Made by a program: the position numbers and the translations under genes. A stretch of DNA of 64,000 bases, from assembly GCA_018304985.1 (NCBI GenBank), contig JAGVWP010000003.1, positions 988 to 64,987 on the forward strand, read 5' to 3'. Each line of letters opens with the position of its first letter. The stretch's first letter is position 1. The notes beneath the pieces were generated by a model, which saw only the letters and a program-made list of their open reading frames with translations, was not told the DNA's origin and ran no database searches. The stretch comes from Candidatus Pacearchaeota archaeon. Its GTDB lineage: Archaea; Nanobdellota; Nanobdellia; Pacearchaeales; GW2011-AR1. Positions 910-59,324 of the stretch are shown here, piece after piece.

Positions 910-950
910 ATAAAGGCAACCCAAGGTTATTCATATAACATATCCTTTAA
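910..950 (+). repeat. family-1 hairpin repeat unit (degenerate copy)
   Basis: ataaaggcaacccaaggttattcatataacatatcctttaa aligns with ataagggcaaccaaaggtttacccttatcaacccttcctttta at 31479. Lies directly after a stop codon. Confidence 0.5.
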
Positions 951-5119: not shown

Positions 5120-6880
5120 TTATTTTCGTTTACTTTTAGCAGCTGTATTTGTTTTCCAAGCACCTGACTTTCTAATAACATAATTGACTGGATTTTTTAC
5201 TTTTAAAGAAAGATCATCCATATCATAAACTCCAATTTCTTTGTAAATTGAATTATCAAAGTTTGGCGGCAGGATAGATTTTTGTTTTGAGTGCCAGATT
5301 AATTGAGAATTTATATAACCTTGTTTTAACTGCGGCTTGTTTAACTGATTCCAAGAATTAATTCTTTTCTCTATTTCTTCCATAGGTATGTTTAGCGATT
5401 TGAAGAAATTCAATAAAATGAATAAGGCTCTTTTTCTTCCGTCTTCCATGCCTTTTAATATTTTTAATATTGCAGGAGGAAAATTTTCATCTTTCAAATC
5501 CTGAGGTTTTAATTTTATTTCCTGGAATTTTCTATTTTTTTCGTTATCTTTTTCATCCCCAGTTTCCAAATTATCTTTGTATTGTATTTTCTCCTCTTTT
5601 TTATTTGCTGTCTGGGAAGCATGCCAGTCCAAAGCCTGAATTAAAAGTTCTCTTGCTTCATTTTTTTTAGCGCTTGGAGTAAAATTAATTACTTTAACAT
5701 TTAATGGGTTTGCATCTTTAATATCAAAGTTTTCCAATTGAGATTTTGCAATAACAATGCTTGCAAGCGCTGTTTTCTCGTGAAGAGAATAAGGCATTCT
5801 GAATAAATGTCTTTGAGAGACTAATTGCAAATCTAAACCAAGAATTTTAAATATATCAACAGCAATTGATTCCTCATTAAAATTATTTGGAGATTGCAAT
5901 GAATTTAATCTGCAGGTATTGCAAACATAAAATTTCTTTTTGTTAGTTTCACGCATTTGAGAACTGCAGTTAGGGCATTTTTTTACAGAATATTTTTCAG
6001 TTGGAGATTTAAAAGTTTCGATATAGGGAGAAGAATGCTTATCGCACCTTAGTGTTATTTGATAGCTTTCACTGGCTAAATTTTTGCAGTTTTCACATCT
6101 TATCCCTGTAAACCCTTCTTGTTTTGCAAAATCAGAATCTGTATTTTTTATCAGATCCTGGAGAATTGGCCTGGAAATTTCTTTAACATACTCTGTAATG
6201 ATTCTTGGCCATTCTGGAAACATATCTTTTGCTTTTATTCCGTTGATTTCTTCCGGAAATGCCTGCCATGGAATAATAATATGAAACCCTTTGGAACCAC
6301 TAAATTTGATCCCTGCATTTTTCACACCCCTAAACTCCAGGGATTTAATTATTGAAAGAGCTGCTTTTTTGCTGTAATCAAACCATTTACAGTCTATATC
6401 TATTATCAAATCCCATCCCGTCCTTAAATTATTTAGTTGCTCATGATTTAATTCTGTAGATAGTTGCAAAGCATCATTCCATAATTCTTCAGAACAATGA
6501 AAGCTTGTTGCTCCTCTTTTGACTAATGCTAAAATGTCAGAGGGATATTGAAACGAATCTGGCCTTTTGCCAAAACCTTCAAAGTATCTAGGAGAGATCT
6601 CGCGGTTTTGAGAGAACTGAAATAATGCATTAAGAACATCTTTTCTTGAGTAATATGATAAAGCAATATTTTTTATTCTTTTTTCATTTACACTTTCTAT
6701 AGCTTCATCATTTATATTTTCTTCATTAACACCTTCTTTTTGCTCCATAGCTAAACTGGGAAAGTGTGTTTTAAATAAATTTGTGTCATAAAATATAAGG
6801 GCAACCAATGGTTTACCCTTATCAACCCTTCCTTTTAGATGCCAAGGTTTCTTCGATAATAACTTACTTTTAGATGCCAA
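5120..6880 (-). CDS. priS: archaeo-eukaryotic DNA primase, PriS catalytic domain fused to a PriL-CTD-like helical domain (likely true start 6748)
   Basis: Catalytic motifs WDLIIDIDC and SGSKGFHIIIPW. Zn-knuckle cysteines CENC...C and CPNC...CNTC. C-terminal NFPPAILKILKGMEDGRKRALFILLNFF. The first 44 codons of the tracked ORF translate family-1 repeats; MEQKEG at 6748 is the more likely start. Confidence 0.8.
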   Translation of the reverse strand: MASKSKLLSKKPWHLKGRVDKGKPLVALIFYDTNLFKTHFPSLAMEQKEGVNEENINDEAIESVNEKRIKNIALSYYSRKDVLNALFQFSQNREISPRYFEGFGKRPDSFQYPSDILALVKRGATSFHCSEELWNDALQLSTELNHEQLNNLRTGWDLIIDIDCKWFDYSKKAALSIIKSLEFRGVKNAGIKFSGSKGFHIIIPWQAFPEEINGIKAKDMFPEWPRIITEYVKEISRPILQDLIKNTDSDFAKQEGFTGIRCENCKNLASESYQITLRCDKHSSPYIETFKSPTEKYSVKKCPNCSSQMRETNKKKFYVCNTCRLNSLQSPNNFNEESIAVDIFKILGLDLQLVSQRHLFRMPYSLHEKTALASIVIAKSQLENFDIKDANPLNVKVINFTPSAKKNEARELLIQALDWHASQTANKKEEKIQYKDNLETGDEKDNEKNRKFQEIKLKPQDLKDENFPPAILKILKGMEDGRKRALFILLNFFKSLNIPMEEIEKRINSWNQLNKPQLKQGYINSQLIWHSKQKSILPPNFDNSIYKEIGVYDMDDLSLKVKNPVNYVIRKSGAWKTNTAAKSKRK

Positions 6881-6903
6881 GATTCTTCTTATGACATCTC
6901 CTT
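6795..6903 (+). repeat. family-1 hairpin repeat, 3 tandem units
   Basis: ataagggcaaccaatggtttacccttatcaacccttccttttag / atgccaaggtttcttcgataataacttacttttag / atgccaagattcttcttatgacatctcc. Confidence 0.75.
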
Positions 6904-6916
6904 AAAAAAGAAATTT

Positions 6917-6995
6917 ATTATTGTGGGGATTCAAAAAGTTCTTGAATCATCAAAATAACTCCGCCCGATTTATACATCTTAAGTCACTATTAACT
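6917..6995 (+). repeat. family-2 repeat (diverged copy)
   Basis: tattgtggggattcaaaaagttcttgaatcatcaaaataactccgcccgatttatacatcttaagtcactatt aligns with the copies at 51321 and 37670. Confidence 0.5.
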
Positions 6996-7079
6996 TAGAA
7001 TTTAAATTAGATTTCCAATATTTATATTTAGTAAATGGACTATAACAAAGCTTAAAAGTAAGCCAGATTATTAGGTTTT

Positions 7080-9847: not shown

Positions 9848-9988
9848 CTAATTTCCTCTTATAACCTCAATTTTTGTTCTTGAAAACTTTTAAATACTCT
9901 TTATTATTATACATATGATATTAGATAGTAATATTAATATGTAATATAATATGAATATTCATAAATAAAAACCACCAGCGAGGTTTCT

Positions 9989-10180
9989 ATGCATCCTGCA
10001 ACCAAAACAAATAAATTGTTAGAATTTGTAAAGAAAAATAAGGTAGTTACTAGTTCTGAAGTTGCCAAATACTTTAAAATTTCATGGAATACTGCTGATA
10101 AATATCTTTTAGAGTTAGTTGTAGAGAATAAAGCTGAAAGAATAAAAAAAGAAGGGGTGAATTTATGGATAGCAAGATAA
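9989..10180 (+). CDS. small winged-helix protein, overlaps the start of the downstream pilin-like gene
   Basis: 63 aa. LLEFVKKNKVVTSSEVAKYFKISWNTADKYLLELV has an HTH pattern. 16-nt overlap with 10165. Confidence 0.5.
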   Translation: MHPATKTNKLLEFVKKNKVVTSSEVAKYFKISWNTADKYLLELVVENKAERIKKEGVNLWIAR

Positions 10181-11333: not shown

Positions 11334-12680
11334 ATGAAAATAATAAACAGTAAGCTAGATAGAAAATCATATAAAAGTTTTGAAAATGTAGAAACGAATA
11401 AATCTACTAAGTTATTGAGTAATAAATTTAAGTTAAGTAATAATTCATTAGCTAATAATCCTAAACTAAATTGTGATAATAAAGTTAAGTTAATAGATGT
11501 TCGTAATGATTCAAGATTATCTAATTTAGCCAGCGTTTCTAGAGATTCAAGAACATTATTTATACTATCAATATTTGAGATAACATTACTAGTTTTAACT
11601 ACCTTCTCATTTTCATGGATGATTGGAAATACTAATTCCAATAATAACAACATACCTTATGATGATTTAAATAAAAATATTTTTGGCAGTTTAATTAAAG
11701 AACTTATTAATTTCATAGATATTATTCCAAGTGTTTCAGCGCAAACTCCTTCTGGAGTAAGCTGCTGCATTAATTCTCAAAGTGGCAATTCGTGCAGGGA
11801 ATTTCCAAGTTCGGAATGCGGCAATGAATGTGATGGAACTTGCCTGCCAACAAGTTGCGGTGAAACAACTCAATGCAAGGCAGGATGCTGTTATGATAAA
11901 GACGAAGGTTTATGCGATCCAAATAGTTTAAAACAGCAATGCGAGTCAAGAGTTAATGGAAATTGGATTGATGCGCCTTTTTGCGAGACAGCTGAATGCG
12001 CAAAGGGCTGCTGTGTTTTAGGATTTAGTTCGCAGTTTGTAACAGAACAGAGATGCACAAAACTATCGCAACTAGAAGGAATGCAAATGAATTTTAAACC
12101 AGAAATTACAGATGAATTAAGCTGTTTGGGAATTGCAAATTCTGAAAAAACAGGAGCTTGTGTTTATGGAGAGGAAATAGCTGAAGAAAATAATAAGAGA
12201 AACTGCAAATTTACAACAAAACAGGATTGCGATTCCATACCTGGAGACTTTAATGAAGGCAAACTTTGTTCAAATACCGCGTTAAATACTGTTTGTGAAA
12301 AGCAAAGCTCAACAAATTGTTTAGAAGGAAGAGATGAGATTTATTGGTTTGACAGCTGCGGAAATGTTGAAAATATTTACAGTTCTGACAAGCAAAGGGC
12401 TTGGAATAATGGATTAGTGTTAAGTGAATCGCAATCATGCAATCCTAATTCAAATAATGCTGGAAGTTCAACATGCGGAAATTGCGATTATAATTTGGGA
12501 AGTATTTGCGGAAAGTTCAGGCCTGGAATTGATGATGGAAATTTAGAAGGATATACATGCAGAGATTTGAATTGCAAGAATTTAAAAAAAGAAGTGAGTG
12601 ATAAGAGTACAAGAATAAATGGAGAATCATGGTGTGTTTATGATGGAATACTGGAGATTCTGTTTTGTCAAATATTATAG
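11334..12680 (+). CDS. giant Cys-rich membrane/surface protein, module A, N-terminal part (frameshifted near 12645)
   Basis: Paralog of 16819-18912 (GCCYD, GCCVLG, DSCGN..NIY, CGNCDY, GESWCVYD). The homologous sequence continues in another frame after GESWCVYD. Confidence 0.65.
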   Translation: MKIINSKLDRKSYKSFENVETNKSTKLLSNKFKLSNNSLANNPKLNCDNKVKLIDVRNDSRLSNLASVSRDSRTLFILSIFEITLLVLTTFSFSWMIGNTNSNNNNIPYDDLNKNIFGSLIKELINFIDIIPSVSAQTPSGVSCCINSQSGNSCREFPSSECGNECDGTCLPTSCGETTQCKAGCCYDKDEGLCDPNSLKQQCESRVNGNWIDAPFCETAECAKGCCVLGFSSQFVTEQRCTKLSQLEGMQMNFKPEITDELSCLGIANSEKTGACVYGEEIAEENNKRNCKFTTKQDCDSIPGDFNEGKLCSNTALNTVCEKQSSTNCLEGRDEIYWFDSCGNVENIYSSDKQRAWNNGLVLSESQSCNPNSNNAGSSTCGNCDYNLGSICGKFRPGIDDGNLEGYTCRDLNCKNLKKEVSDKSTRINGESWCVYDGILEILFCQIL

Positions 12681-15466
12681 GAAGACCTGTTTCGTCGAAT
12701 AGTAAAATTGATATTATGAGCACTGATTTAGTTGGAAGCCGTCATTTTAGATATGTTTGTGAAAACGGGGAGGTGGTAAGCGAACCATGCGCTGATTATA
12801 GAAAAGAAGTTTGTGTCCAGAATGAAAAATCTTTAAGCAATAGCAAAAAAATTGACGAGGCAATTTGCAGGGTAAATTTATGGGAGCAGTGTATTTCTGC
12901 AAATAGTGATGTTATTGGAAGTTTAACAGGAATTGGATGTGGGCCTAGTTGCATACAAAAATGCAATTCAAATCCTGACTGCAGGTTGCAAGTAACATAC
13001 GTTGATGAATTTTTTAGATTTGCAACTTGTGTCCCTCGTTATCCTCCTGGTCTTGATTTAAGTTCAACAAGTGGAATTGGAAGCATGGCACAAGGATATG
13101 CTTCTGGAATTGCTCAAAGTTATTTATCTGATTCAATTGGAGGAAGCATTGCATCAGGCACTTTAAGCAGCCTTGGCAATAATGGAGGAACAGATGCTTC
13201 CCAAGTATGTGACCTTGCATCGAAAACTTGTAAAGTTACTTATGTAAAAGCATGTTTTGGAGGTGGTTGGAAATGTGTAAATAATTGTGAATGCCAAGAA
13301 TCTTCATTCACAATACAAATGAGCAACTTATGTTCGAGCTTAGGAGATTGTGGGATAAAATCAAATATAGCAGGAAGAGTTACTTTAGGAGGAGCATTTA
13401 TTATGAAAAGGGGAAGTAAAGGCCATGCGCCTCCACAGCCATTTATAATGCTTCCTTTCCATTTGTGGATTGCAACACTTCAGGCAAAAATACAATCTGG
13501 AGGATTTTTTAAAGAGCAAGAAAATATTTTAGAATTAGCAGGGCAAGGGCTTTCTGATCCTTTTCTTGCGATTACAAGTGGTGCTCTGTCAGGAGTTAAT
13601 TTAATGACTCCAAACATTCCTGAATATGGGGGATTTAGTGCTGGGGGTGCTGCTGGGGGTGCTGCCGCAGGAGCAGCAATCGGCTCTTTTATTCCAGGGG
13701 TAGGAACAATTATTGGAGCAGTTTTAGGAGCAGTTCTCGGCGGCTTTTTCGAAGATATTTTAGCAGCGCTTTTCGGTTGTGGAAAAGTTAAAGAAGTAAA
13801 AATATCTTATAACTGCCAGCCATGGCAGAGGCCTAGCGGGGATGGAAGAACAGTAATAAGCAGGATTTTAGAGCGATTTGAAAGAGATGAAAATGGATTA
13901 ATAGCAAGACTTAATACTAAAAAAGGCTGCGAGTTTTGCAATAATGACAAGTTAAAACCTTGCACAAAATATAGATGTGAGAGCCTGGGTATGCGATGTA
14001 AATTAATTAATGAAGGAACAGGGCAAGATACTTGCATTACAGATAGTCAAGCAACTGGAATACCTATAATAACTCCGTGGGAGGAAGTATTGAATAAAAC
14101 ACTTTTCAGCTACCAAGATGTAAGTAACAATGGATTTAGAGTTAGAACAGCTGGCAATGATTGCATTGAAGCATTTACTATTTTATCATTTGGAGTAAAA
14201 ACAGATGTATTTTCTCAGTGCAGATGGAGCATGGATAATAATATTACAGAGTTTGATGAAATGATGCCTTTCTTAGAACAGAATTTATTTACTAAAAATC
14301 ATTCTTTAATCAGTATTTTACCGAGTGTTGAAAGTATTATTGCAAGCGAGACAGGAAATTCTGAAGAATTCCAACAAGCAATTGCAAATCCAGATATTTA
14401 CAATCCAATATTAAATCAAATTGGGGATTTGAATATTCATGTTAAATGCGCAAATATCGACGGCAAGACAAATGATCAGAATTACAGGATTAATTTCTGT
14501 GTTAAACCAGGACCTGATTTAACTCCCCCAGTTGTATACGCAACAACTCCTCCTGAAAATGCAATTGTTGCTTTAAATGCAACACAGCAAGAAGCAATAT
14601 TTTTTATTAATGAACCTAGTGAATGTAGAATAGATGTGATAAAACCGAGTTCAACAAATATGCAAGATGCTTACTTTAATTTAAGCAATTCAATGAGTTG
14701 TGAAACAGATGTTTTTGCAGGAACGCTTTTAGGTTTTCCTTGCAATGCAACTTTGCCATTAGCAACAGGCAATGAAATCAAATTTTATATTTTATGCAGA
14801 GACCAGCCTTGGCTTGGAGAAAATAATTCAAGAAATTTCGGAGCAAAAGAGGGAGGAGTTTATGAATATAAATTGCAAAGAAGCCCAAGCGAATTAAAAA
14901 TAACTTCAGTTTCTCCAAGCGGGGTAATAACTCGTGGAGCAGAGCCAATAAGCATTGAATTAGAAGCAATAACATCTGGAGGAGGTTATAATGGAATTGC
15001 GAGTTGCGAGTTTGAAGGAAGGGATCAAAATGGAAATACATGGGGAGATAATTTTCCTGAAACAGCAACTTCACATAAGTATTTGCTTAGTCAGATGAGA
15101 AGAGGAAATTATACAGTTAATGTTAAATGTTTGGATGCTGCTGGAAATTATGCAGAAAATTCAACAAGTTTTAATTTAATGCTTGATACTCAATATCCAA
15201 GCGTAACAAGAATTTATTATCAATCTGGAGATTTAACTGTTTTAACTGATGAAGATGCTACCTGCGCTTATAGCAATGATAATAATTCAACAACCTGCGG
15301 TTATGATTTTGAAACAGCAAGCAAGATGAATGGAAATTCAAGAGAACATAGTATTGTGTGGGATGTGAACAGCACATTTTACATAAAATGCGCTGATATC
15401 TGGGGAAACAAGCCAGGAAGCTGCTCAATAATTGCAAAGCCGAATAATGTTGCAGGAGTCAGGTAA
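12665..15466 (+). CDS. giant Cys-rich membrane/surface protein, module A, C-terminal part (open from 12644)
   Basis: LVGSRHFRYVC matches SVGSRYFRHLC in 16819-18912. The distal part (CQPWQRPSG, CTKYRCESLGMRCKLINEGT, PDLTPP, TDEDATCAYS) matches 19455-21845. Confidence 0.65.
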   Translation: MSNIIGRPVSSNSKIDIMSTDLVGSRHFRYVCENGEVVSEPCADYRKEVCVQNEKSLSNSKKIDEAICRVNLWEQCISANSDVIGSLTGIGCGPSCIQKCNSNPDCRLQVTYVDEFFRFATCVPRYPPGLDLSSTSGIGSMAQGYASGIAQSYLSDSIGGSIASGTLSSLGNNGGTDASQVCDLASKTCKVTYVKACFGGGWKCVNNCECQESSFTIQMSNLCSSLGDCGIKSNIAGRVTLGGAFIMKRGSKGHAPPQPFIMLPFHLWIATLQAKIQSGGFFKEQENILELAGQGLSDPFLAITSGALSGVNLMTPNIPEYGGFSAGGAAGGAAAGAAIGSFIPGVGTIIGAVLGAVLGGFFEDILAALFGCGKVKEVKISYNCQPWQRPSGDGRTVISRILERFERDENGLIARLNTKKGCEFCNNDKLKPCTKYRCESLGMRCKLINEGTGQDTCITDSQATGIPIITPWEEVLNKTLFSYQDVSNNGFRVRTAGNDCIEAFTILSFGVKTDVFSQCRWSMDNNITEFDEMMPFLEQNLFTKNHSLISILPSVESIIASETGNSEEFQQAIANPDIYNPILNQIGDLNIHVKCANIDGKTNDQNYRINFCVKPGPDLTPPVVYATTPPENAIVALNATQQEAIFFINEPSECRIDVIKPSSTNMQDAYFNLSNSMSCETDVFAGTLLGFPCNATLPLATGNEIKFYILCRDQPWLGENNSRNFGAKEGGVYEYKLQRSPSELKITSVSPSGVITRGAEPISIELEAITSGGGYNGIASCEFEGRDQNGNTWGDNFPETATSHKYLLSQMRRGNYTVNVKCLDAAGNYAENSTSFNLMLDTQYPSVTRIYYQSGDLTVLTDEDATCAYSNDNNSTTCGYDFETASKMNGNSREHSIVWDVNSTFYIKCADIWGNKPGSCSIIAKPNNVAGVR

Positions 15467-15703: not shown

Positions 15704-16504
15704 ATGACTAAGTTTAAAAAGAGGTTAGATAAGAAAGGTCAAATCACGATATTTGTAATAATTGCAATTGTTATAATTGCTGCTGTGATTTTATTTTTTA
15801 CTTTAACACAGCAAGGCAAAAATATTGTCCAGCAGGTTACAGGTTCTGAAGCAGCTTTAGATGTTGTTGGAGAAATAACGAATTGTATTGAGAATAATGA
15901 AGAAATAAATAACAAAATTGCTTTAATAACAAGCCAAGGCGGAAGTATTGCTCCTGAAAATTATATTTTATATAATAATTCTAAAGTTGAGTATCTTTGT
16001 TATTCTAGTGATTATTTGAAAACATGTTATATGCAACAGCCTTTATTGTTGCAGCACATAACACAGGAACTGCAGAATGCTGTGAGGACTGATGTTGAAA
16101 GCTGTTTTGCTAAAGAAAAAGAGCTTTTAGAAAGCAGAGGATATAATGTTAATTTAGGAAGAATAAATTTTTCTTTGGAAATTACTCCCGACAATTTAGT
16201 ATTTAACATTAATACCCCAATGACAATAACTAAAACAAACAGCCAGACATTCAAAGATTTTACAATCAGGAAGAATAGCGGTTTATATCAGTTAATTATG
16301 TTAAGCACGTCAATACTTAATTTTGAAGCAAGATACGGAGATAGTGATCCTGCATTATATATGACGCTTTATCCAAGCGTGAGAGTTGAAAAACAAAGAA
16401 AAAGCGGCGGCAGCAAGGTATATATTTTATCAGACCGAGATACTAATGAAGTATTCATGTTCGCAAGCAAAAGCTTGGCTTGGCCGCCGGGTTATAAATT
16501 ATAA
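15704..16504 (+). CDS. class III signal peptide (type IV pilin-like) protein, module B
   Basis: N-terminus KKGQITIFVIIAIVIIAAVILFF. Paralog of 10165-10998. Confidence 0.6.
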   Translation: MTKFKKRLDKKGQITIFVIIAIVIIAAVILFFTLTQQGKNIVQQVTGSEAALDVVGEITNCIENNEEINNKIALITSQGGSIAPENYILYNNSKVEYLCYSSDYLKTCYMQQPLLLQHITQELQNAVRTDVESCFAKEKELLESRGYNVNLGRINFSLEITPDNLVFNINTPMTITKTNSQTFKDFTIRKNSGLYQLIMLSTSILNFEARYGDSDPALYMTLYPSVRVEKQRKSGGSKVYILSDRDTNEVFMFASKSLAWPPGYKL

Positions 16505-16582
16505 AAAGAACCAATATGTTAAGTTTAACTTAACATCAAGATTATATAATCTTAATGGTTCTTCTTATGACATCTCCTTAAG
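16505..16582 (+). repeat. family-1 hairpin repeat with a 39-nt insertion in the loop
   Basis: aaaagaaccaat[atgttaagtttaacttaacatcaagattatataatctta]atggttcttcttatgacatctcc. Confidence 0.6.
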
Positions 16583-16818: not shown

Positions 16819-18912
16819 ATGAGCAAAAAATCATATAAAAGTTTTGAAAATGTAAGAAACAACTTAACTAGCAAGCAGTATGGTTATAATAATAAATCAG
16901 ATAAAATTAATAATAATTTAAATAGCAATAGAAATCATATAAAATCTGAAATTATAGCAACAATTAGATTTAATTCAGTTAGATTAAGTAATAAGGTTAA
17001 GTATAGTAAATTTAAATTAAGTAATAATTCATTAGCTAATAATCCTAAATTAAATTGCGATAATAAAGTTAAGTTAATAGATGTTCATAATGATTCAAGA
17101 TTATCTATGCTCTCATTTATTTTCTTACTATCAACCATAATTATATTTTCAGCTTCCTTTATTTCAGCGCAAGCAACTACAACAGCAGATACTTCTCAAG
17201 TAAGCTATTGCTGCGAGAAAACTTTATCAGGAGCTTACTGCCAAAATGCTCAACTTGAACAATGCGATCCTAATTTTCAGAAAACTCCGACATCATGTGA
17301 ATCAACATCTTACTGCAAGAAAGGATGCTGCTATGACAGCAATGAGGGAATTTGCATGGAAAACACTCCAAGAGAAGCATGCAAAGCAAATAATGGGGCA
17401 TGGAGCGATAGTGCAAGCTGTGAAATTGCGCAATGTAATTTAGGCTGCTGTGTTTTAGGAACTCAAGCAGCTTATGTGCCTTTAGTCAGATGCAAGAAAC
17501 TTTCAGCTTTTTACGGACTGCAGACAGATTTCAGAACAAATATTGCTGATGAACTTTCCTGTATTGCTTTAGCATCTGCGCAGGATTTTGGAGCTTGTGC
17601 GTATGAATCTGAATTCACATCAACATGCAAGATGACCACAAGAGGAGATTGCCAGGCAAACAATCTTGGAAGTGTAAGCAATTCAACATCTGTAAAATTT
17701 TACAAAGATTATTTATGCACTGCAACTGAATTAGGAACTAATTGCCAGCCAACAGAAAAAACAGCATGTGTTGATGGAAAAGATGGAGTTTATTTTTTAG
17801 ACAGCTGTGGAAATGCTGCAAATATTTACAATGCAAATATGGCTTATAGTAAGGGCAAAGGAAATAAAGAAGCAGTTGATTATTGGACTAAAGTTAAAAA
17901 ACCTGAAGAATCATGCAACCCTGATTCAAGCAATGCTGATTCTAATAGTTGTGGAAATTGTGATTATCTGGCAGGAAGCATTTGCAAGAAAGCAGACAGA
18001 GGAAAAAAACCAACCTATGGAAATTATATTTGCAGAGATTTAAATTGTGAAGACACTAGCAATGGCAAAGATTACAAAAACGGAGAATCATGGTGCGTGT
18101 ATGATCAAGGAAAAAAAGATGTGGATAGTGTTGGAAGCAGATACTTTAGGCATTTGTGTTTTTCAGGGGAGGAAATTGTTGAAGCTTGCGAGAATTTCAG
18201 AAATCAGGTTTGTGTTGAATCAAGTATCGGTGAGGGAGAAGATTTTTCACAAGCGGGTTGCGTTGTCAATAGATGGCAGGATTGTGTTTTGCAGAATTCA
18301 AGCACTGATTGTGAGAATAGTGATAAAAGAGATTGTAAATGGGTTTCTTTAGCTATAACTGCAGAACAATTGAAAGAAGAAGTAAAAAGCAGAATTGATG
18401 CAAAAATTAACAAAGTAACTGGAGAAAAAGGAAGATGTGTTCCTAATATTGCTCCCGGATTAGAGTTTTGGGATCTAAGTTCTGAAGCGCAATGCAAACT
18501 GGGAAGCCAGAGTTGTGTTGTTAAATACGAGAAAAAAATAATCGGGCAGAAAAAATGCGTTGAAAATTGTGAGTGCTTGACACAGGCTGCAAAATTAAAA
18601 GCAAATCAAATCTGCAATTCATTAGGAGATTGCGGAGCTAAAATGAATTATATTGGAAAATTTGTAGATGCTGGATATAAAATATCTGTTAACAAAAAAG
18701 GAGAAGAAGAAAAAGAATCTGGGCAAGGAGGAACTGCACAGCCAGGAGCTGCAACAACTCAACAGACACAACCTCCGACAGTGGCAGAAGGACAGACTTT
18801 TGATGGCAGAACAGGAGATACATTTACACAACCTGCTAATGCGGGAACAACTGGAAATGTTATTCAGGGATTGGTAATTAAAACTTATAATAAAATATCG
18901 GGAGCTGACTAA
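16819..18912 (+). CDS. Cys-rich surface protein, module B part 1 (equivalent to the N-terminal two-thirds of the module A giant)
   Basis: The tracked ORF starts at 16747 inside the tRNA. The ATG at 16819 (MSKKSYKSFENV) matches the module A leader. Has a signal-like LSMLSFIFLLSTIIIFSASFISAQA followed by a Cys-rich domain. Confidence 0.65.
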   Translation: MSKKSYKSFENVRNNLTSKQYGYNNKSDKINNNLNSNRNHIKSEIIATIRFNSVRLSNKVKYSKFKLSNNSLANNPKLNCDNKVKLIDVHNDSRLSMLSFIFLLSTIIIFSASFISAQATTTADTSQVSYCCEKTLSGAYCQNAQLEQCDPNFQKTPTSCESTSYCKKGCCYDSNEGICMENTPREACKANNGAWSDSASCEIAQCNLGCCVLGTQAAYVPLVRCKKLSAFYGLQTDFRTNIADELSCIALASAQDFGACAYESEFTSTCKMTTRGDCQANNLGSVSNSTSVKFYKDYLCTATELGTNCQPTEKTACVDGKDGVYFLDSCGNAANIYNANMAYSKGKGNKEAVDYWTKVKKPEESCNPDSSNADSNSCGNCDYLAGSICKKADRGKKPTYGNYICRDLNCEDTSNGKDYKNGESWCVYDQGKKDVDSVGSRYFRHLCFSGEEIVEACENFRNQVCVESSIGEGEDFSQAGCVVNRWQDCVLQNSSTDCENSDKRDCKWVSLAITAEQLKEEVKSRIDAKINKVTGEKGRCVPNIAPGLEFWDLSSEAQCKLGSQSCVVKYEKKIIGQKKCVENCECLTQAAKLKANQICNSLGDCGAKMNYIGKFVDAGYKISVNKKGEEEKESGQGGTAQPGAATTQQTQPPTVAEGQTFDGRTGDTFTQPANAGTTGNVIQGLVIKTYNKISGAD

Positions 18913-22139: not shown

Positions 22140-22733
22140 ATGATAAAAATAAAAGACACTAAGGTTTCTTTTATGAAACTTCCTTTTAATAGACCAAGGG
22201 CTTCTTTTATGAAGGTTTCTTTTAATAGAGGGCAGTTTCAAATCAGCTTTGGCATGATTTTTTCTATAATATTAATAGCTGTATTTATTGTTGTGGCAAT
22301 AATTGCAATCAATGCATTCTTAAAAATATCGTGCACTGCATCTAATGGGCAGTTTATCAAAGAATTAAGAGATGATGTTGAAAGGATATGGGCTCAAAGT
22401 GGGCAAGATGTCTTATTTGAATCAAGTTTAGGGAATGGGTTTTCGTGTAAGGTAGAAAAAGTCTGTTTTTTTAATTATGATAAACCTCAAAAAGGCCAGG
22501 CAAATGAAGAATATGAAGATTTTCAGACTTTCGGAACAAACTCTGAAAGTAATTTATATTTCTACCCCCAGAAAAATGCTGACCTTAAATCAGTAAATAT
22601 TGTTTATGTGAATATGCAGGCATTTGATGAAAATCCTTACTGCATAAAAGCAGAAAACGGAAAAATAAGAATGAGGTTAAGCAAGGATCAGTTTGCTGGA
22701 GAAACGCTTGTAAAAATAAAAAGAGATGAGTAA
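22140..22733 (+). CDS. class III signal peptide (pilin-like) protein (probable start 22209 or 22173)
   Basis: MKVSFNRGQFQISFGMIFSIILIAVFIVVAIIAINAF. All candidate ATGs upstream of the hydrophobic segment lie inside the family-1 repeat. Confidence 0.55.
   Translation: MIKIKDTKVSFMKLPFNRPRASFMKVSFNRGQFQISFGMIFSIILIAVFIVVAIIAINAFLKISCTASNGQFIKELRDDVERIWAQSGQDVLFESSLGNGFSCKVEKVCFFNYDKPQKGQANEEYEDFQTFGTNSESNLYFYPQKNADLKSVNIVYVNMQAFDENPYCIKAENGKIRMRLSKDQFAGETLVKIKRDE
22149..22230 (+). repeat. family-1 hairpin repeat, 2 units, overlapping the 5' end of the next gene
   Basis: aaaagacactaaggtttcttttatgaaacttccttttaat / agaccaagggcttcttttatgaaggtttcttttaatagag. Confidence 0.7.
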
Positions 22734-23802: not shown

Positions 23803-24804
23803 TTGAAAGTGGTTAAATTAGACAATAAAAAAGCATTAGAAATGAGTTTTGCATGGATTTTTGCAATTATAGTTGGAGCAATAATTATTATAAGCGCTAT
23901 TTATATTGCAGGAAAATTTATTATTCCTGGCGGACAATATAGAGTTAATACAGAAACAGCCAAGCAAATTGCTAATGCCTTTGAACCATTGCAAACAAGT
24001 GTTGAAGAAATCAAATCAGACTCTTTAATCTTTATTAGTGAGACAAAATTATACACTTCTTGCAATTTAAATGAAGAATTTGGAGAAAATAGATTTGAGA
24101 TTTCAGAAAGAAGCGGGTTTAATAAACAATGGACTGAAAGAGGGGGGGATATTGCTTCTAAAAATTATGTTTTTGCTGAAGAGGAAATAGAAACTAAAGA
24201 AGATAAGAGGGTTTATTTCCTTGTTAAACAATTTAAAATGCCGTTTAAAACAGCTGATGTGATTTCAATGTACACTAATAAATATTGCTTTGTTAACACT
24301 CCAGAAAGCATTGAAGAGGAGTTAAATGCCTTGAATTTAAAAGAAAATGGAACAAATATTGAATTGAAAACAGCAGTAAGCAGTTGTGATGAGGATAGTG
24401 TTAAGGTTTGTTTTAACAGTCAAGGTAATTGTGATGTAATTGTTTCGTGCAATGATTTTGAATGTAACAATGGATATGTTAAAAAAGGGAGCAATTATAA
24501 AGAGTATTTTTCAAAGGCTCTTGTGTATGGGGCAATTTTCAGCTCAAAAGAAGACTATGAATGCAATGTTGAAAGAATAATGAAAAGATTAAATGCCTTA
24601 AGTGAACTTTATGCTGATAAAGCTACGTTCATTTCTGGAAAAGGATGCAATACAGGATTAAATGCAGATATCGTAGCTCTTGCTCAGCTAACAAGCAAGT
24701 TTAATATTAAAAAAATTGAATCAGAATTGCCTGTAATTGAAGCACAGGCAATGACAATTGAAGAGAAAAACAAGCCGGAAAATTTAGTTTGCCAGCTTTT
24801 TTAA
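23803..24804 (+). CDS. class III signal peptide (pilin-like) protein, Cys-containing
   Basis: TTG/GTG start. NKKALEMSFAWIFAIIVGAIIIISAIYIA. Multiple Cys in the C-terminal half. Confidence 0.5.
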   Translation: MKVVKLDNKKALEMSFAWIFAIIVGAIIIISAIYIAGKFIIPGGQYRVNTETAKQIANAFEPLQTSVEEIKSDSLIFISETKLYTSCNLNEEFGENRFEISERSGFNKQWTERGGDIASKNYVFAEEEIETKEDKRVYFLVKQFKMPFKTADVISMYTNKYCFVNTPESIEEELNALNLKENGTNIELKTAVSSCDEDSVKVCFNSQGNCDVIVSCNDFECNNGYVKKGSNYKEYFSKALVYGAIFSSKEDYECNVERIMKRLNALSELYADKATFISGKGCNTGLNADIVALAQLTSKFNIKKIESELPVIEAQAMTIEEKNKPENLVCQLF

Positions 24805-24805
24805 T

Positions 24806-24852
24806 AAAGGAAACCAATGGTTTTGCCCTTATCAACCCTTCCTTCAAGGAAA
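24806..24852 (+). repeat. family-1 hairpin repeat unit
   Basis: taaaggaaaccaatggttttgcccttatcaacccttccttcaagg. Confidence 0.65.
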
Positions 24853-25398: not shown

Positions 25399-25926
25399 AT
25401 GAGAAAGATAATGAATAAAAAAGCGCAGGAAGAAATGGTGGGATTTGCACTAATAATTGTTTTAGTGGCTGTTATTGGCCTGGTTCTTCTGGGTATTATC
25501 CTTAGAACGTCTGGAGGAAGAAGCCAAGAAGCAAGGCAAAGCAGTGAGTTAGATAGTTTTACTAAAAGTGTGGCAAGTTATACAACCGAGTGCGAGATTT
25601 CTGGCAGGGGATTTAGGACAGTAAGTGAATTAACAGGTGATTGCGCTGATAAGGGTGGAAATTGTGATAATGAATTTGCTTTCTGCGAAGTTTTAAGCTC
25701 AACTCTAAAAGGTATACTAAATACAACTTATAATGTGGCAAATAGCAGCAATATTAAGTATTACAAAGCCCAAATTGTAAAAGGTTCTGGCAATTCGGGC
25801 CAGGATATTATCCAGCCAATAATCAATGGGAATACAGAAACATGCAACAATAAATTCTTAAGTGATTATTTTGTAAGCATTAGTTCTGGATTGGCAAGTC
25901 TTAGGTTAGAGGTTTGTTATCGGTAA
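25399..25926 (+). CDS. class III signal peptide (pilin-like) protein
   Basis: NKKAQEEMVGFALIIVLVAVIGLVLLGIIL. Starts 2 nt after the preceding stop. Confidence 0.5.
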   Translation: MRKIMNKKAQEEMVGFALIIVLVAVIGLVLLGIILRTSGGRSQEARQSSELDSFTKSVASYTTECEISGRGFRTVSELTGDCADKGGNCDNEFAFCEVLSSTLKGILNTTYNVANSSNIKYYKAQIVKGSGNSGQDIIQPIINGNTETCNNKFLSDYFVSISSGLASLRLEVCYR

Positions 25927-25990
25927 TAAAAAGAACCAATGTTCTTCTTATGACATCTCTTTTTAGATGCCAAGGTTCTCTTTATGAACT
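25927..25990 (+). repeat. family-1 hairpin repeat, 2 units
   Basis: aaaagaaccaatgttcttcttatgacatctctttttag / atgccaaggttctctttatgaact. Confidence 0.7.
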
Positions 25991-26045
25991 ATTTTTTGAA
26001 ATCGTGCCATACTTTTACCTAATTTTGATGTGAAGTGATTGAATT
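25991..26045 (+). repeat. family-2 repeat
   Basis: attttttgaaatcgtgccatacttttacctaattttgatgtgaagtgattgaat. Confidence 0.55.
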
Positions 26046-26158
26046 TAGTTGATTAACTTAAGTCATTTAACCTAATTAACTTAATAATTTGTTTGTTACA
26101 TTTTCAAAACCTATAGAAATAACTGCGAAGCAGACAATCTTAATCTTATAATGGAAGG

Positions 26159-29744: not shown

Positions 29745-29850
29745 AAAATAGAAGACACCAAGGTTTCTTCTATAATAACTTCCTTTTAATAGACCAATGG
29801 TTTCTTCTATAATAACTTCCTTTTAGATATTAAGGTTTTCTTTATGAAAT
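29745..29850 (+). repeat. family-1 hairpin repeat, 3 tandem units
   Basis: aatagaagacaccaaggtttcttctataataacttccttttaat / agaccaatggtttcttctataataacttccttttag / atattaaggttttctttatgaaat. Confidence 0.75.
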
Positions 29851-30680: not shown

Positions 30681-30684
30681 AGTT

Positions 30685-30730: not shown

Positions 30731-30751
30731 CCAAACTAACAAAAAATAAAA

Positions 30752-31477
30752 ATGGCTGAAGAAAAAACAAAAAAAAGTGAGAAAATAACCAGTAATAGTG
30801 AAAACTCAAATGAAACAATTGAAAAACCTTTTGATTATAAAAAAGTAAATTATCAGGTTATATGGGTTATAGTTGTTTTAGTGGCAGTGTTAATATCATT
30901 TTTTGCAACAATGTGGATTTTGTCAGAAGCAAATAAATATGATTATATTGGATTGACTTTTAAAAAAGAAATGTTTGGGAATATTCCTTTGCATACAACA
31001 CAGTATACAGGCTATGGAGCAAATGGCTGGCCTACAAGCTTTAAATTAGCCTTAAGAAATGACCCTAGAGAGTTAAGTGTTCCTATTGAGGGAAAGTTAA
31101 AATTTATAACAAGCAATTTAACTTATGTTTCAATTGACAGGGAATCTGGAATATTAGGATGCAGTGATTCAACTATTGCTTTATCTTCTTTAGGAATTTT
31201 CATGAACAATATGAAAATTATCATTAAATCAGCTGTCACCTCTCAAAATGCCTCTGTTGAATTAAATAAAACAATAGTTACTTGCAATAATAGCCTAGAT
31301 AATACTGTTTTAATTATTACTGCAGGAAATGAATCTAAAATATTCCAGGACAAAAATAATTCAAATTGCTATACTCTTTCAGTTAATAATTGTGAGATAG
31401 TTCCTGTTATTGAAAGATTTGAGGTAGCAACTATTGCAGAAGTTAATGATGAAGATATTGATGGGTATGATGGCTAA
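30752..31477 (+). CDS. N-terminally anchored extracellular protein
   Basis: Charged N-terminus, then TM VIWVIVVLVAVLISFFATMWIL. Confidence 0.45.
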   Translation: MAEEKTKKSEKITSNSENSNETIEKPFDYKKVNYQVIWVIVVLVAVLISFFATMWILSEANKYDYIGLTFKKEMFGNIPLHTTQYTGYGANGWPTSFKLALRNDPRELSVPIEGKLKFITSNLTYVSIDRESGILGCSDSTIALSSLGIFMNNMKIIIKSAVTSQNASVELNKTIVTCNNSLDNTVLIITAGNESKIFQDKNNSNCYTLSVNNCEIVPVIERFEVATIAEVNDEDIDGYDG

Positions 31478-31528
31478 TAAGGGCAACCAAAGGTTTACCC
31501 TTATCAACCCTTCCTTTTAAGTGCCAAT
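31477..31528 (+). repeat. family-1 hairpin repeat unit
   Basis: ataagggcaaccaaaggtttacccttatcaacccttccttttaagtgccaat. Confidence 0.7.
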
Positions 31529-35244: not shown

Positions 35245-35312
35245 AAAAAATAAAAGACACCAAGGTTTCTTTTATGAAGCTTCCTTTTAATTCTTTTATG
35301 AACTCTCCTTTA
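35245..35312 (+). repeat. family-1 hairpin repeat, 2 units
   Basis: aaaaaataaaagacaccaaggtttcttttatgaagcttccttttaattcttttatgaactctccttt. Confidence 0.7.
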
Positions 35313-35318
35313 TAAATG

Positions 35319-35456: not shown

Positions 35457-35458
35457 TA

Positions 35459-35537
35459 TAAAGACAACCCCTGGTTTTCTTTATGAAACTTTCCTCTTAC
35501 ATGTCTACGGTTTTCTTTATGAGTTTTCCCTTCACTC
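35459..35537 (+). repeat. family-1 hairpin repeat, 2 units
   Basis: ataaagacaacccctggttttctttatgaaactttcctcttac / atgtctacggttttctttatgagttttccc. Confidence 0.65.
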
Positions 35538-43361: not shown

Positions 43362-43425
43362 AAATAAAAAGAACTAATAGTTCTTCTTATGACATCTCCT
43401 TTTTCATGTTATGACGCTTCCCTAT
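43362..43425 (+). repeat. family-1 hairpin repeat (stem variant AAGAACT/AGTTCTT)
   Basis: aaaaataaaaagaactaatagttcttcttatgacatctcctttttcatgttatgacgcttccc. Confidence 0.7.
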
Positions 43426-44502: not shown

Positions 44503-44550
44503 AAATAAAAAGAACCTACGGTTCTTCTTATGACATCTCCATTTAGGGAG
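44503..44550 (+). repeat. family-1 hairpin repeat unit
   Basis: aaaataaaaagaacctacggttcttcttatgacatctccatttaggg. Confidence 0.7.
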
Positions 44551-51300: not shown

Positions 51301-51320
51301 ATGAGATTAGTATTGTATAG

Positions 51321-57759: not shown

Positions 57760-57816
57760 TATGAAAGAAAATAAATTGGTTGCTGGATGCATAGAAACCC
57801 GCTGGAGGTTTTTATA
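57760..57816 (-). repeat. family-1-related repeat (inverted) between rpl2 and rps19
   Basis: ggttgctggatgcatagaaacccgctggaggttttt shares ggttgctggatgYataRaa with 59217 and contains an AAACC...GGTTT hairpin. Confidence 0.5.
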
Positions 57817-59213: not shown

Positions 59214-59324
59214 TGTGGTTGCTGGATGTATAAAAGTAAATGAAAGGAGAGTTCATAAAGAAAACCATTGGCTATTAAAAGGAAAGTTTGATAAAGAAAA
59301 CCTTGGTTGTCTTTATTTTTTATA
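59214..59324 (-). repeat. family-1 hairpin repeat, 2 units, inverted, between rpl22 and rps3
   Basis: Reverse complement reads aaaaaataaagacaaccaaggttttctttatcaaactttccttttaatagccaatggttttctttatgaactctcctttcat. Confidence 0.7.

What the first reader, a model, noticed from the sequence alone, without database searches (positions are those of the whole stretch)
6795..6903. Family 1: abundant intergenic hairpin repeat in tandem units, with compensatory stem changes
A unit of about 35-45 nt, roughly AAAGA-(c)A-ACC-aaN-GGTT-(t)CTT-yTATGA-nnn-yTCC-TTTTA(A/G), occurs singly or as 2-3 tandem units at 14 or more intergenic loci (my count by eye). The forward copies are 910-950, 6795-6903 (x3), 16505-16582, 22149-22230 (x2), 24806-24852 and 25927-25990 (x2). 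Further forward copies are 29745-29850 (x3), 31477-31528, 35245-35312 (x2), 35459-35537 (x2), 43362-43425 and 44503-44550. Inverted copies are 57760-57816 and 59214-59324 (x2). Each unit opens with a hairpin whose sequence varies while pairing is kept. Examples are AAGAACC/GGTTCTT (44507), AAGAACT/AGTTCTT (43368, a C-G to T-A double change) and AAGAAC/GTTCTT (25930). Longer variants are ATAAGGG-c-AACC/GGTT-ta-CCCTTAT (6795, 31479) and AGAAGA-c-ACC/GGT-t-TCTTCT (29751). Copy 16505-16582 carries a 39-nt insertion exactly in the loop. Most copies abut a stop codon. Orientation relative to the flanking genes is not fixed: they are antisense at 35245 and 35459, and lie in divergent regions at 6795 and 43362. 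They are therefore not simply terminators. The covariation argues for selection on an RNA or DNA hairpin. Candidates are a REP/MITE-like element, a protein-binding punctuation signal or a processing site.
Basis: seen in the sequence. Interest (0 to 1): 0.65.

Follow-up and report, generated by a model that had tools for sequence, protein, structure and literature searches.

The report
Palindromic gene-boundary repeat in DPANN archaea
The window comes from a tiny groundwater archaeon (Pacearchaeota) whose spaces between genes are seeded with a 40-base hairpin-plus-tail repeat that is gained and lost quickly, is shared almost letter for letter by at least 24 related species, and also forms the start of many of their tRNA introns.

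Summary
The repeat is real. A degenerate 24-nt pattern gives 21 window matches against 1.5 expected. A covariance model finds 13 full-unit loci in the window and 124 copies in 708 kb of related DNA.

The unit is an 11-12 bp imperfect hairpin (ATAAAAAGAACC-loop-GGTTCTTcTTAT) followed by a pyrimidine tail (GAnnnYTCCTTTTA). Only the first unit of an array has the hairpin; later units lack the 5' arm.

The host is a Pacearchaeota (DPANN) archaeon. At least 24 species-level DPANN genomes carry near-identical units. Bacterial and viral pattern hits lack the hairpin arm.

Five of 11 stem pairs show double (compensatory) changes.

Orientation does not follow gene direction (60:49) but is regionally coherent (26:8). 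The 5' edge abuts stop codons (TAA lies inside the unit) or antisense start codons.

Against a relative at 77-93% nucleotide identity, units are present or absent, or replaced by another subfamily, at the same sites.

Seven tRNA introns in five genomes start with the unit, always in sense; an eighth starts with a related hairpin.

Best reading: a REP-like, non-autonomous palindromic DNA element with an unknown mobilising enzyme, new for archaea. No Rfam family or paper found describes it.

The parts
6795..6838 (+). Unit 1 of the array in the finding (subfamily A). It has the full hairpin ATAAGGG-c-AACC / GGTT-ta-CCCTTAT plus the tail CAACCCTTCCTTTTAG.
   Evidence: Sequence. Model hit at 6795-6837. 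Folds at -9.6 kcal/mol as RNA, z -2.16.
6839..6873 (+). Unit 2. It is 5'-truncated (loop, 3' arm and tail only) and has no hairpin.
   Evidence: Sequence. nhmmer partial hit at 6842-6873. Fold energy 0 as DNA and -0.6 as RNA.
6874..6903 (+). Unit 3. It is 5'-truncated and carries the C-type 3' arm and tail TTCTTCTTATGACATCTCCTT.
6904..6985 (+). 5'-truncated copy of a second repeat family ('Family 2'), fused to the tail of unit 3. Units plus this copy are the bulk of the extra DNA (about 6795-7019) that the orthologous primase-PCNA spacer of the closest relative lacks.
   Evidence: family alignment. (the orthologous spacer in L005 lacks it).
910..950 (+). Single, degenerate unit directly after the stop codon of ORF 136-909.
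   Evidence: 21.4 bits. The orthologous site in L005 has three hits to the repeat pattern.
16501..16582 (+). C-type unit whose TAA (nt 2-4) is the stop codon of ORF 15704-16504. A 42-nt double palindrome (16515-16556) is inserted in its loop.
   Evidence: 44 bits. (the ortholog in L080 is identical but lacks the insertion). (the insertion has no other copy in the held DNA).
22149..22224 (+). B-type unit followed by one truncated unit.
   Evidence: 61.6 and 15.2 bits.
24804..24847 (+). A-like unit after the stop codon of ORF 23803-24804. It is absent from the orthologous site of the relative.
25926..25990 (+). C-type unit plus a partial unit, directly after the stop codon of ORF 25399-25926 and followed by the 3' half of Family 2. 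The relative has a different subfamily at the same site.
29748..29850 (+). Array of three units: one full and two truncated. The orthologous array in the relative differs by a compensatory G-C versus A-T stem pair.
31477..31519 (+). A-type unit overlapping the stop codon of ORF 30752-31477. It is absent from the relative.
35250..35313 (+). B-type unit plus a partial unit, antisense to the flanking genes. It lies 9 nt from the start codon of the prefoldin gene (34906-35241, - strand). It is absent from the relative.
35458..35534 (+). Two units, antisense to the flanking genes. The relative has a single unit of another subfamily at the same site.
43364..43425 (+). C-type unit with a T-A top pair, plus a partial unit. 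It lies 8 nt from the start codon of ORF 43006-43356 (- strand) in a divergent spacer.
44505..44545 (+). Single C-type unit upstream of the ribosomal protein L1 gene.
59241..59316 (-). Two units in reverse orientation between the L22 and S3 genes of the ribosomal-protein operon. They end in TTTTTTATA immediately before the ATG of S3.
57778..57816 (+). Related hairpin family ('Family 3'): GGTTGCTGGATGCATAGAAACCCGCTGGAGGTTTTTATA, between the L2 and S19 genes. It is not a member of the modelled family.
   Evidence: copies in many genomes. (no model hit). (flanking genes).

Best explanation
This is a small, non-autonomous palindromic DNA repeat of the REP/MITE kind that lives in DPANN archaea (Pacearchaeota and relatives).

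What is shown:
- The basic unit is an imperfect 11-12 bp hairpin plus a pyrimidine tail. Other genomes carry a longer form of about 55 nt. The window's 36-nt internal units look like that form with about 21 nt deleted at each junction.
- Copies are inserted, lost, duplicated in tandem, and replaced by other subfamilies at gene boundaries.

What is inferred:
- A trans-acting enzyme, not yet identified, recognises the folded palindrome with its single conserved mismatch, probably on single-stranded DNA. This would explain why pairing is kept and why neighbouring copies share a strand whatever the genes do.
- The element is tolerated in a very compact genome because it carries harmless or useful boundary signals. 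In sense orientation, its nt 2-4 (TAA) serve as the stop codon of the gene upstream and it has no T run longer than four. In reverse orientation it presents AAAGGAG, a TATA-like box (TCATAAAAG) and a hairpin followed by T5-6, directly in front of the next start codon.
- In tRNA genes it sits inside the canonical intron, where it is spliced out.
For: 1. Abundance and specificity: 21 window matches against 1.5 expected. There are 124 model hits in 708 kb of DPANN DNA and none in six bacterial control loci. None of the 5 viral pattern hits has the hairpin arm.
2. The palindrome is maintained. 88.9% of cells are paired, against at most 65.5% when partners are slid. Five of 11 pairs have double changes. 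Each subfamily keeps one mismatch. One orthologous array shows a compensatory G-C/A-T difference.
3. Rapid turnover against a relative at 77-93% nucleotide identity. Four loci are window-only (6795, 24806, 31477, 35245). Four are relative-only (L022:1784, L022:646, L005:5286, L005:10730). Three sites hold different subfamilies (25927, 35459, 59214).
4. There is no tie to transcription. The contexts are >E> 36, <E< 25, >E< 22 and <E> 18. Orientation against the local gene majority is 60:49, while 67.6% of adjacent genes are co-directional.
5. Regional strand coherence: adjacent loci 1-30 kb apart are 26 same to 8 different, p = 0.003.
6. Degenerate copies exist, for example 910-950.
7. There are nested insertions. 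A 42-nt palindrome sits in a unit's loop, and units sit inside Family 2 copies.
8. The unit's TAA is the stop codon in about 15 cases, as reported for bacterial REP termini (PMC3733652).
9. In tRNA introns the unit is always in sense (7 of 7). This fits avoidance of the T5-6 run that the reverse orientation would place inside a tRNA gene.
Against: - No transposase was found. A motif scan for IS200/RAYT-type Y1 enzymes over about 0.8 Mb gave nothing. None of the 40 window proteins scanned against Pfam is a transposase.
- No target-site duplication or fixed flanking target is visible.
- Units are identical over 40 nt in genomes whose proteins are far apart (47% identity for one shared protein). 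This is unusual for neutral selfish copies and suggests either strong recognition constraints or a cellular function.
- The 5' edge is placed very exactly at stop codons, start codons and 5' splice sites. Insertion plus compaction explains this only loosely.
- Arrays are head-to-tail, not alternating as in bacterial BIMEs.
- The direction of replication is unknown, so the strand coherence is only suggestive.
Confidence: 0.5

Rival explanations
1. It is a cellular gene-boundary signal acting at the RNA level. The hairpin and tail would serve as a terminator or 3'-end stabiliser in one direction and as a terminator, promoter or ribosome-binding cassette in the other. Alternatively it is a cleavage site that cuts polycistronic transcripts, recognised by a conserved DPANN protein.
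For: - Sequence is conserved across at least 24 species and exceeds protein conservation.
- Placement at stop and start codons is exact.
- The reverse strand offers AAAGGAG, a box one mismatch from the local TATA consensus TTTATAAA, and a hairpin plus T5-6 about 26-29 nt before the ATG of prefoldin, S3 and ORF 43006-43356.
- Units sit inside the essential ribosomal-protein operon.
- Orientation is strictly sense in tRNA introns.
Against: - There is no orientation preference relative to genes.
- Context frequencies match the background of gene-pair types.
- Close relatives do without the unit at the same sites.
- Relatives with 77-83% PCNA identity have no copy in 20 kb.
- Internal units lack the hairpin.
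- A normal T-rich terminator already precedes the 29748 array.
- Complementarity between the tail and a downstream Shine-Dalgarno sequence was not above control, 9 against 5.
Confidence: 0.2
2. It derives from tRNA introns, or seeds them, and spreads through RNA. An excised intron-like RNA would be rejoined by the splicing ligase or reverse-spliced, then copied back into DNA. That would place the element's first base exactly at RNA ends: 5' splice sites, transcript starts and transcript ends.
For: - Seven tRNA introns in five genomes begin with the unit within 0-5 nt of the 5' splice site, always in sense; an eighth, in a sixth genome, begins the same way with a Family 3-type hairpin.
- The tRNA-Gly(CCC) intron carries different families in two genomes.
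- Antisense-class units sit at the start codons of genes that appear leaderless (TATA box 22-25 nt before the ATG), which would be transcript starts.
- Large-scale tRNA intron transposition of unknown mechanism is on record for Thermoproteales (PMC4090602).
Against: - No reverse transcriptase was seen.
- The unit has no bulge-helix-bulge motif of its own. In the introns that motif is built from the exon and the intron's 3' end.
- Most copies are intergenic and lie in either orientation to genes.
- An intron interior is simply a neutral landing site for any insertion.
Confidence: 0.12
3. It is a DNA-level recognition site for a chromosomal process, for example an uptake signal for conspecific DNA or a strand-oriented architectural site, rather than a mobile element.
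For: - One sequence is conserved across many species, as with uptake-signal 'dialects' (comparison from my own knowledge).
- Orientation is regionally coherent.
- Placement is extragenic, with hairpin pairs such as the tail-to-tail pair in L050.
Against: - At 40-57 nt, with several coexisting subfamilies and tandem arrays, it is unlike known uptake or polarity signals.
- Copy number differs greatly between related genomes: no copies in 20 kb of three relatives.
- There is fast turnover and there are decayed copies.
Confidence: 0.08

Closest known systems
Bacterial REP / BIME / REPIN elements mobilised by RAYT (Y1 HUH) transposases
   Same: - Imperfect palindromes of 20-40 nt.
- Likely hundreds of copies per genome, by extrapolation from the density seen here.
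- Extragenic, occurring singly or in clusters.
- A conserved mismatch in the stem.
- Found in either orientation to genes.
- The terminal bases often supply the stop codon of the flanking ORF (PMC3733652).
   Different: - The host is archaeal (DPANN).
- The end is ATAA, not the GTAG or CGTC tag.
- An asymmetric pyrimidine tail belongs to the unit.
- Clusters are head-to-tail with 5'-truncated units, not alternating.
- No RAYT gene was seen.
- The same sequence is shared across many species.
- Copies sit in tRNA introns.
MITEs and IS200/IS605-derived palindrome-associated elements (PATEs) of archaea and bacteria
   Same: - Non-autonomous and intergenic.
- Carry hairpins and leave no obvious duplication, as in the IS200/IS605 type.
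- Orientation is coherent along the chromosome, as expected for insertion into one replication strand.
   Different: - Much shorter (26-57 nt) than typical MITEs.
- No fixed target tetranucleotide at the 5' flank.
- No parent IS or transposase was found.
Correia elements of Neisseria and Rickettsia palindromic elements (from my own knowledge)
   Same: Small palindromic repeats that carry or create expression signals and are tolerated next to or inside genes.
   Different: - Those are 100-150 nt long with terminal inverted repeats. Correia elements also leave a TA duplication.
- They are confined to one genus.
- They are bacterial.
Transposed tRNA introns of Thermoproteales (Fujishima et al. 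2010, as summarised in PMC4090602)
   Same: Near-identical intron sequences occur in tRNA genes of different identity, which implies intron gain at the DNA level by an unknown mechanism.
   Different: - Here the shared sequence is mainly an intergenic repeat.
- It occupies only the 5' part of canonical 37/38 introns.
- The splice motif is supplied by tRNA-specific sequence.

Membership tests
REP / BIME (RAYT-associated) | Short imperfect palindrome, high copy number, extragenic | tested here: met
   21 matches against 1.5 expected. 13 loci in 64 kb. 11-bp stem with one mismatch.
REP / BIME (RAYT-associated) | Conserved GTAG or CGTC tetranucleotide at one end (PMC3733652) | tested here: not met
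   All aligned copies begin ATAA, GTAA or TTAA.
REP / BIME (RAYT-associated) | A RAYT (Y1 HUH transposase) gene in the genome | tested here: inconclusive
   No IS200/RAYT-like motifs in six-frame translations of about 0.8 Mb. No transposase among 40 window proteins. Most of each genome was not seen.
REP / BIME (RAYT-associated) | Clusters of units in alternating orientation | tested here: not met
   Arrays are head-to-tail. Only one tail-to-tail pair was seen, in L050.
MITE | Terminal inverted repeats with a target-site duplication | tested here: inconclusive
   The hairpin arms could count as inverted repeats. No duplication is seen at the filled and empty sites L022:1784, L022:646, 35245 and 31477. 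An 8-nt direct repeat is possible at 24806.
IS200/IS605-derived element | Insertion 3' of a fixed tetra- or pentanucleotide | tested here: not met
   The 14 nt upstream of 117 distinct copies show only a weak A/T preference.
IS200/IS605-derived element | Orientation bias with respect to replication direction | tested here: inconclusive
   Neighbouring loci share a strand, 26:8, independently of genes, 60:49. Replication origins and direction are unknown.
Transcription terminator | Fixed orientation downstream of a gene, with a T run after the hairpin | tested here: not met
   The upstream gene is in sense in 62 cases and antisense in 49. In the aligned copies the sense strand generally has at most T4; the T5-6 run is on the reverse strand.
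Archaeal intron (bulge-helix-bulge substrate) | Two 3-nt bulges separated by a 4-bp helix at the element's ends | tested here: not met
   The unit folds as a plain hairpin. In tRNA genes the motif is formed by the anticodon loop and the tRNA-specific 3' end of the intron.
Box C/D sRNA or any Rfam family | Match to a curated covariance model; C (RUGAUGA) and D (CUGA) boxes with guide regions | tested here: not met
   Only tRNAs reach threshold. The best other matches have E of 0.57 or worse and lie far below the gathering scores.
CRISPR array | Repeats separated by unique spacers of similar length | tested here: not met
   Units are directly adjacent with a 35-37 nt period.

The most novel reading that the evidence does not exclude
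The palindromic unit is the mobile agent behind tRNA intron gain in these archaea. It is also a DPANN-wide 'boundary cassette'. It lands exactly at RNA or gene boundaries (5' splice site, stop codon, leaderless start). It is kept uniform across species by a conserved, still unknown recognition enzyme, possibly the splicing endonuclease and ligase or a single-strand DNA transposase. That would link REP-like repeats, intron origin and gene punctuation in one system.
Probability: 0.15. Interest if true: 0.85.

Novelty: new variant of a known kind. Interest (0 to 1): 0.6.

Why it matters
- Small palindromic repeats are well studied in bacteria. I found no Rfam family and no paper describing such a family in DPANN archaea.
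- These organisms have about the smallest and most compact genomes known. A repeat that fills roughly 1.4% of the window and survives next to essential genes (PCNA, prefoldin, ribosomal proteins) is therefore unexpected.
- The same unit starts the introns of tRNA genes of at least six identities. This gives a concrete, testable candidate for how archaeal tRNA introns are gained, which reviews list as unknown (PMC4090602).
- The unit is also a handy marker for binning and strain typing of Pacearchaeota.
- It is a caution for gene callers. Its TAA, ATG and AAGGAG motifs create false starts and ORFs, for example the TTG-started ORF 5120-6880 that runs through the array.

Tried and rejected
1. Kink-turn or box C/D reading of TTATGA ... 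CTGA in the long form. The spacing and bulge geometry do not fit, and Rfam gives nothing.
2. A bulge-helix-bulge motif inside the unit. There are no 3-nt bulges.
3. Mimic of the 16S rRNA 3' end (tail GACATCTCCTT against GATCACCTCCT, the latter from memory). This is a resemblance only and was not tested against a real Pacearchaeota 16S sequence.
4. The tail pairing with a downstream Shine-Dalgarno sequence to mask it. The complementary 5-mer lies within 28 nt in 9 of 110 units, against 5 in the upstream control.
5. Integron attC sites, origin recognition boxes and dif sites. The genome-wide spread next to core genes and the arm and loop geometry do not fit (reasoning only).
6. Viral carriage. 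There are 0 and 5 pattern matches in IMG/VR, and none has the hairpin arm.
7. Y1 transposase motifs. None were found.
8. Strain-level polymorphism. Four metagenome contigs of the same species are 99.8-100% identical at the loci they cover and give no information.
9. MAFFT alignment of mixed loop lengths misplaced the gaps. It was replaced by a 40-nt gap-free seed.
10. A fixed insertion target. None was found.
Full report
**Observation.** The sequence at 6795-6903 reads ATAAGGGCAACCAATGGTTTACCCTTATCAACCCTTCCTTTTAG, then ATGCCAAGGTTTCTTCGATAATAACTTACTTTTAG, then ATGCCAAGATTCTTCTTATGACATCTCCTT. A degenerate pattern for the 3' arm and tail, allowing up to 3 mismatches, has 21 window matches. Dinucleotide-preserving shuffles give a mean of 1.49 and a maximum of 5. 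Eighteen matches are on the + strand. The repeat finder groups the same loci into families. A covariance model (40 positions, 11 pairs) run without filters finds 13 loci with a full unit, plus weaker partial units beside them. That is about 23 units, or about 1.4% of the window.

**Anatomy.**
- A full unit has three parts. The first is a 5' arm (ATAAAAAGAACC, ATAAAAGACACC or ATAAGGGCAACC). The second is a 2-4 nt loop (usually AA, AAT or CAT inside CCAAGG or CCAATGG). The third is a 3' arm ending in TTAT, followed by a tail GA-NNN-YTCCTTT(T)A.
- Each subfamily keeps exactly one stem mismatch: A x C at pair 5 in the 'C' type and C x T at pair 9 in the 'B' type.
- The tail co-varies with the 3' arm as a same-base correlation. 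GTTC... goes with CTCC and GTTT... goes with TTCC. The tail therefore travels with its hairpin.
- First units fold at -6.8 to -9.6 kcal/mol as RNA and -4.0 to -6.5 as DNA. Internal units of arrays do not fold, because they lack the 5' arm.
- In other genomes the unit is longer (about 55-57 nt). There the tail is followed by TAAGATA and a mini-hairpin GGGTCAAGCC, then TGAT, which runs directly into the next ATAA. The mini-hairpin shows GG/CC to CC/GG and GT/AC changes. The window's 35-37 nt internal units are what remains if about 21 nt are deleted at each long-form junction. This is an inference from the sequences.

**Host and distribution.**
- The neighbouring genes encode a primase-like protein and PCNA.
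- The PCNA matches proteins that the source databases label Candidatus Pacearchaeota.
- The tRNAs, S-layer protein and ribosomal proteins fit an archaeon.
Of these, 76 come from 24 MAGs labelled Pacearchaeota, Woesearchaeota, Nanoarchaeota, Nanoarchaeia or 'uncultured archaeon', all of which I take to be DPANN, and every one has the matching 5' arm. The 25 loci from other organisms lack the arm.
- IMG/VR gave no true copy.
- The model finds 124 copies in 708 kb of these loci and none in six bacterial control loci.
- Copy number is very uneven. Three relatives with 77-83% PCNA identity have no copy in 20 kb each.
- One protein shared between the window and a distant carrier (JAGLGM01) is only 47% identical, while B-type units differ at 2 of 40 positions.

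**Pairing.** On the 93 distinct aligned copies, 88.9% of cells are standard pairs. Shuffling gives 84.0%, and sliding the partners gives at most 65.5%. Five of 11 pairs carry changes on both sides: pair 7 has AU 55 and GC 35, and pair 8 has GC 51 and AU 32. G-U pairs are almost absent. Most of these counts reflect a few subfamily differences inherited by many copies, so they are not independent events. The alignment is also fitted to the model. One independent case is the orthologous array at 29748. The window has G-C where the relative has A-T. The palindrome is clearly maintained. Whether the selected form is RNA or DNA cannot be told from these data.

**Context.**
- With crude ORF calls, the four possible contexts are all common: >E> 36, <E< 25, >E< 22 and <E> 18. 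This is close to the background, in which 67.6% of adjacent genes are co-directional.
- Unit orientation agrees with the local gene majority in 60 cases and disagrees in 49.
- Neighbouring loci tend to share a strand. At 1-30 kb apart, 26 pairs are the same and 8 differ, p = 0.003, with the window excluded. In the window itself all 12 of the + strand full-unit loci keep that orientation, including two inside a block of - strand genes.
- The 5' edge is placed precisely. In about 15 cases the unit's TAA (nt 2-4) is the stop codon of a sense gene, and in about 13 more the stop codon is 0-4 nt away. In about 12 cases an antisense gene's start codon lies within 10 nt.
- Window examples of the antisense class are prefoldin (34906-35241), ORF 43006-43356 and ribosomal protein S3. 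Each is preceded on its own strand by AAAGGAG or AAAGGAA, then a box one mismatch from the TATA consensus (TCATAAAAG or TTGATAAAG), then the hairpin, then TTTTATTTTT(T)ATA and the ATG.
- Ordinary promoters in this window are TTTATAAA, placed 22-25 nt before the ATG, which indicates mostly leaderless messages.

**Turnover.** The closest available genome (GCA_016186425.1, JACPLR01) is syntenic at 77-93% nucleotide identity.
- Window-only units: 6795 (the finding itself; the orthologous primase-PCNA spacer is 84 nt and has no unit), 24806, 31477 and 35245.
- Relative-only units: L022:1784 lies between two genes that are 2 nt apart in the window at 25396/25399. L022:646 sits right at a start codon. 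L005:5286 and L005:10730 are also absent from the window; the latter follows PCNA.
- Same site, different subfamily or unit number: 25927, 35459 and 59214.
- Same unit in both: 16505 is identical over 40 nt while the flanking gene is 82% identical, and the window copy carries an extra 42-nt double palindrome in its loop. 29745 and 910 are also shared.

No clear target duplication is seen. At two empty sites the sequence next to the insertion already resembles the end of the tail (CTTTTTAATT, TTTATTTT), so the last bases of the 'tail' may be target sequence. This is inference.

**tRNA introns.**
- Rfam's tRNA model and ARAGORN run with introns allowed find tRNA genes whose canonical 37/38 intron begins with the unit.
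- The cases are Gly(CCC) and Ile(GAU) in L054, and Lys(CUU) and Arg(GCG) in L102. Ser(GCU) in L099 carries two long-form units. Tyr(GUA) occurs in L081 and L077.
- Gly(CCC) in L045 carries the related Family 3 hairpin.
- All seven model-detected copies are in sense.
- The 3' end of each intron is tRNA-specific and complementary to the anticodon loop. It forms the helix and bulges that the splicing endonuclease needs.
- The unit is thus a passenger placed right after the 5' splice site. The reverse orientation would put a T5-6 run inside the tRNA gene, which may explain the strict polarity (inference).
- L057 shows a unit directly upstream of what looks like a tRNA 3' half. I did not resolve this.

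**Related families.**
- Family 2 is about 115 nt long, with the consensus TTAAATTTCTC-loop-GAGAAATTTAGTATTGTAATGATTCAAGA...TTGAAATCATGCCATATCTTTGCCTAATTTAT. It shows compensatory changes in its first hairpin. It occurs several times in the window and many times in the relative. Family 1 units are often inserted in, or fused to, its first hairpin, as at 6904 onward.
- Family 3 reads GGTTGCTGGATGCATAGAAACCCGCTGGAGGTTTTTATA. Read on the other strand, it is a hairpin-then-tail element of the same general design. It lies directly before start codons, with GGAGG 8 nt upstream of the ATG.
- Neither family matches Rfam.

**Interpretation.**
- Several features are what a non-autonomous palindromic repeat of the REP/MITE kind shows. 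These are fast gain and loss, replacement at the same site, indifference to gene direction, decayed copies, nested insertions, tandem amplification and uneven copy number between relatives.
- A terminus that supplies stop codons is documented for bacterial REPs (PMC3733652).
- Regional strand coherence independent of genes would fit insertion into one replication strand, as known for single-strand (Y1) transposition. That comparison rests on my own knowledge, and replication direction is unknown here.
- I therefore put about 0.5 on this reading. No enzyme, target site or duplication was found, and the cross-species sequence identity and exact boundary placement are not fully explained.
- The main rival is a cellular boundary signal acting on RNA. 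The orientation data and the dispensability of the unit in close relatives weaken it, and expression data are needed to exclude it.
- An RNA-mediated link with tRNA splicing is the most novel reading that remains open.

**Limits.**
- The gene calls are longest-ORF approximations.
- Loci were ascertained with an exact pattern, which favours consensus-like copies.
- The pair counts include non-independent copies.
- No transcript data and no complete genome were available.

Noticed in passing
window 31570-31700, 51302-51420, 6904-6985 (5'-truncated), about 25990-26050 (3' half); many copies in L005-L107: A second structured repeat of about 115 nt ('Family 2'). Its first hairpin is AAATTTCTC / GAGAAATTT, with compensatory variants TTTTC/GAAAA and TTCTT/AAGAA. 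A second long hairpin is ATGATTCAA...TTGAAATCAT, followed by GCCATATCTTTGCCTAATTTAT. It has no Rfam match. Family 1 units are often inserted in or fused to its 5' hairpin.
   Followed up: partly
window 57778-57816 (+), 59217-59232 (+, partial), about 9965-10003 (-); L021, L025, L038, L045, L053, L082, L085, L103, L109: A third repeat: GGTTGCTGGATGCATAGAAACCCGCTGGAGGTTTTTATA, lying directly before start codons with GGAGG 8 nt upstream of the ATG (L2-S19 spacer). On the opposite strand it has the same hairpin-then-tail layout as Family 1. It forms the intron of a tRNA-Gly(CCC) gene in L045.
   Followed up: partly
window 16515-16556: A 42-nt insertion made of two small palindromes (ATGTTAAGTTTAACTTAACAT and AAGATTATATAATCTT) sits exactly in the CCAA|GG loop of a unit. 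It is absent from the orthologous unit in L080 and has no other copy in the DNA held.
   Followed up: yes
window 30678-30754 and 61236-61312: A 77-nt direct repeat at 87% identity lies immediately upstream of two different genes. It contains the palindrome AAAAACCTTAAGGTTTT and ends at the ATG. It may be a shared promoter or operator region.
   Followed up: no
window 11405-11523 and 16989-17107; also 12311/17760 and 12433/17909: Stretches of 77-90% identity lie inside two large ORFs without Pfam domains. These are paralogous, probably secreted or surface proteins.
   Followed up: no
window 12647 against L001 13662-13741: A metagenome contig that is otherwise 100% identical carries 78 extra bases at this point. 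It has one 1403-aa gene where the window has two overlapping ORFs (11334-12680 and 12665-15466). This may be an assembly difference or a strain indel in a coding repeat.
   Followed up: no
window, upstream of most genes (for example 22796, 34427, 38469, 39746, 40481, 46623, 54189): The promoter consensus TTTATAAA lies 22-25 nt before the ATG with no Shine-Dalgarno sequence, which suggests mostly leaderless mRNAs. GGAGG-type Shine-Dalgarno sequences appear mainly inside operons.
   Followed up: partly
L057 364-470 and L089 (whole locus): In L057 a unit lies directly upstream of what looks like an isolated tRNA 3' half, with no 5' half nearby. In L089 a duplicated tRNA 5' fragment (ACGAGCCTGTAGCTCA) flanks a unit. 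These may be split or rearranged tRNA genes.
   Followed up: no
window 5120-6880 (-): The longest ORF for the primase-like gene starts at a TTG inside the repeat array. Alignment with relatives places the real start at the ATG near 6749, so the array is intergenic and lies upstream of the gene's TATA box.
   Followed up: yes
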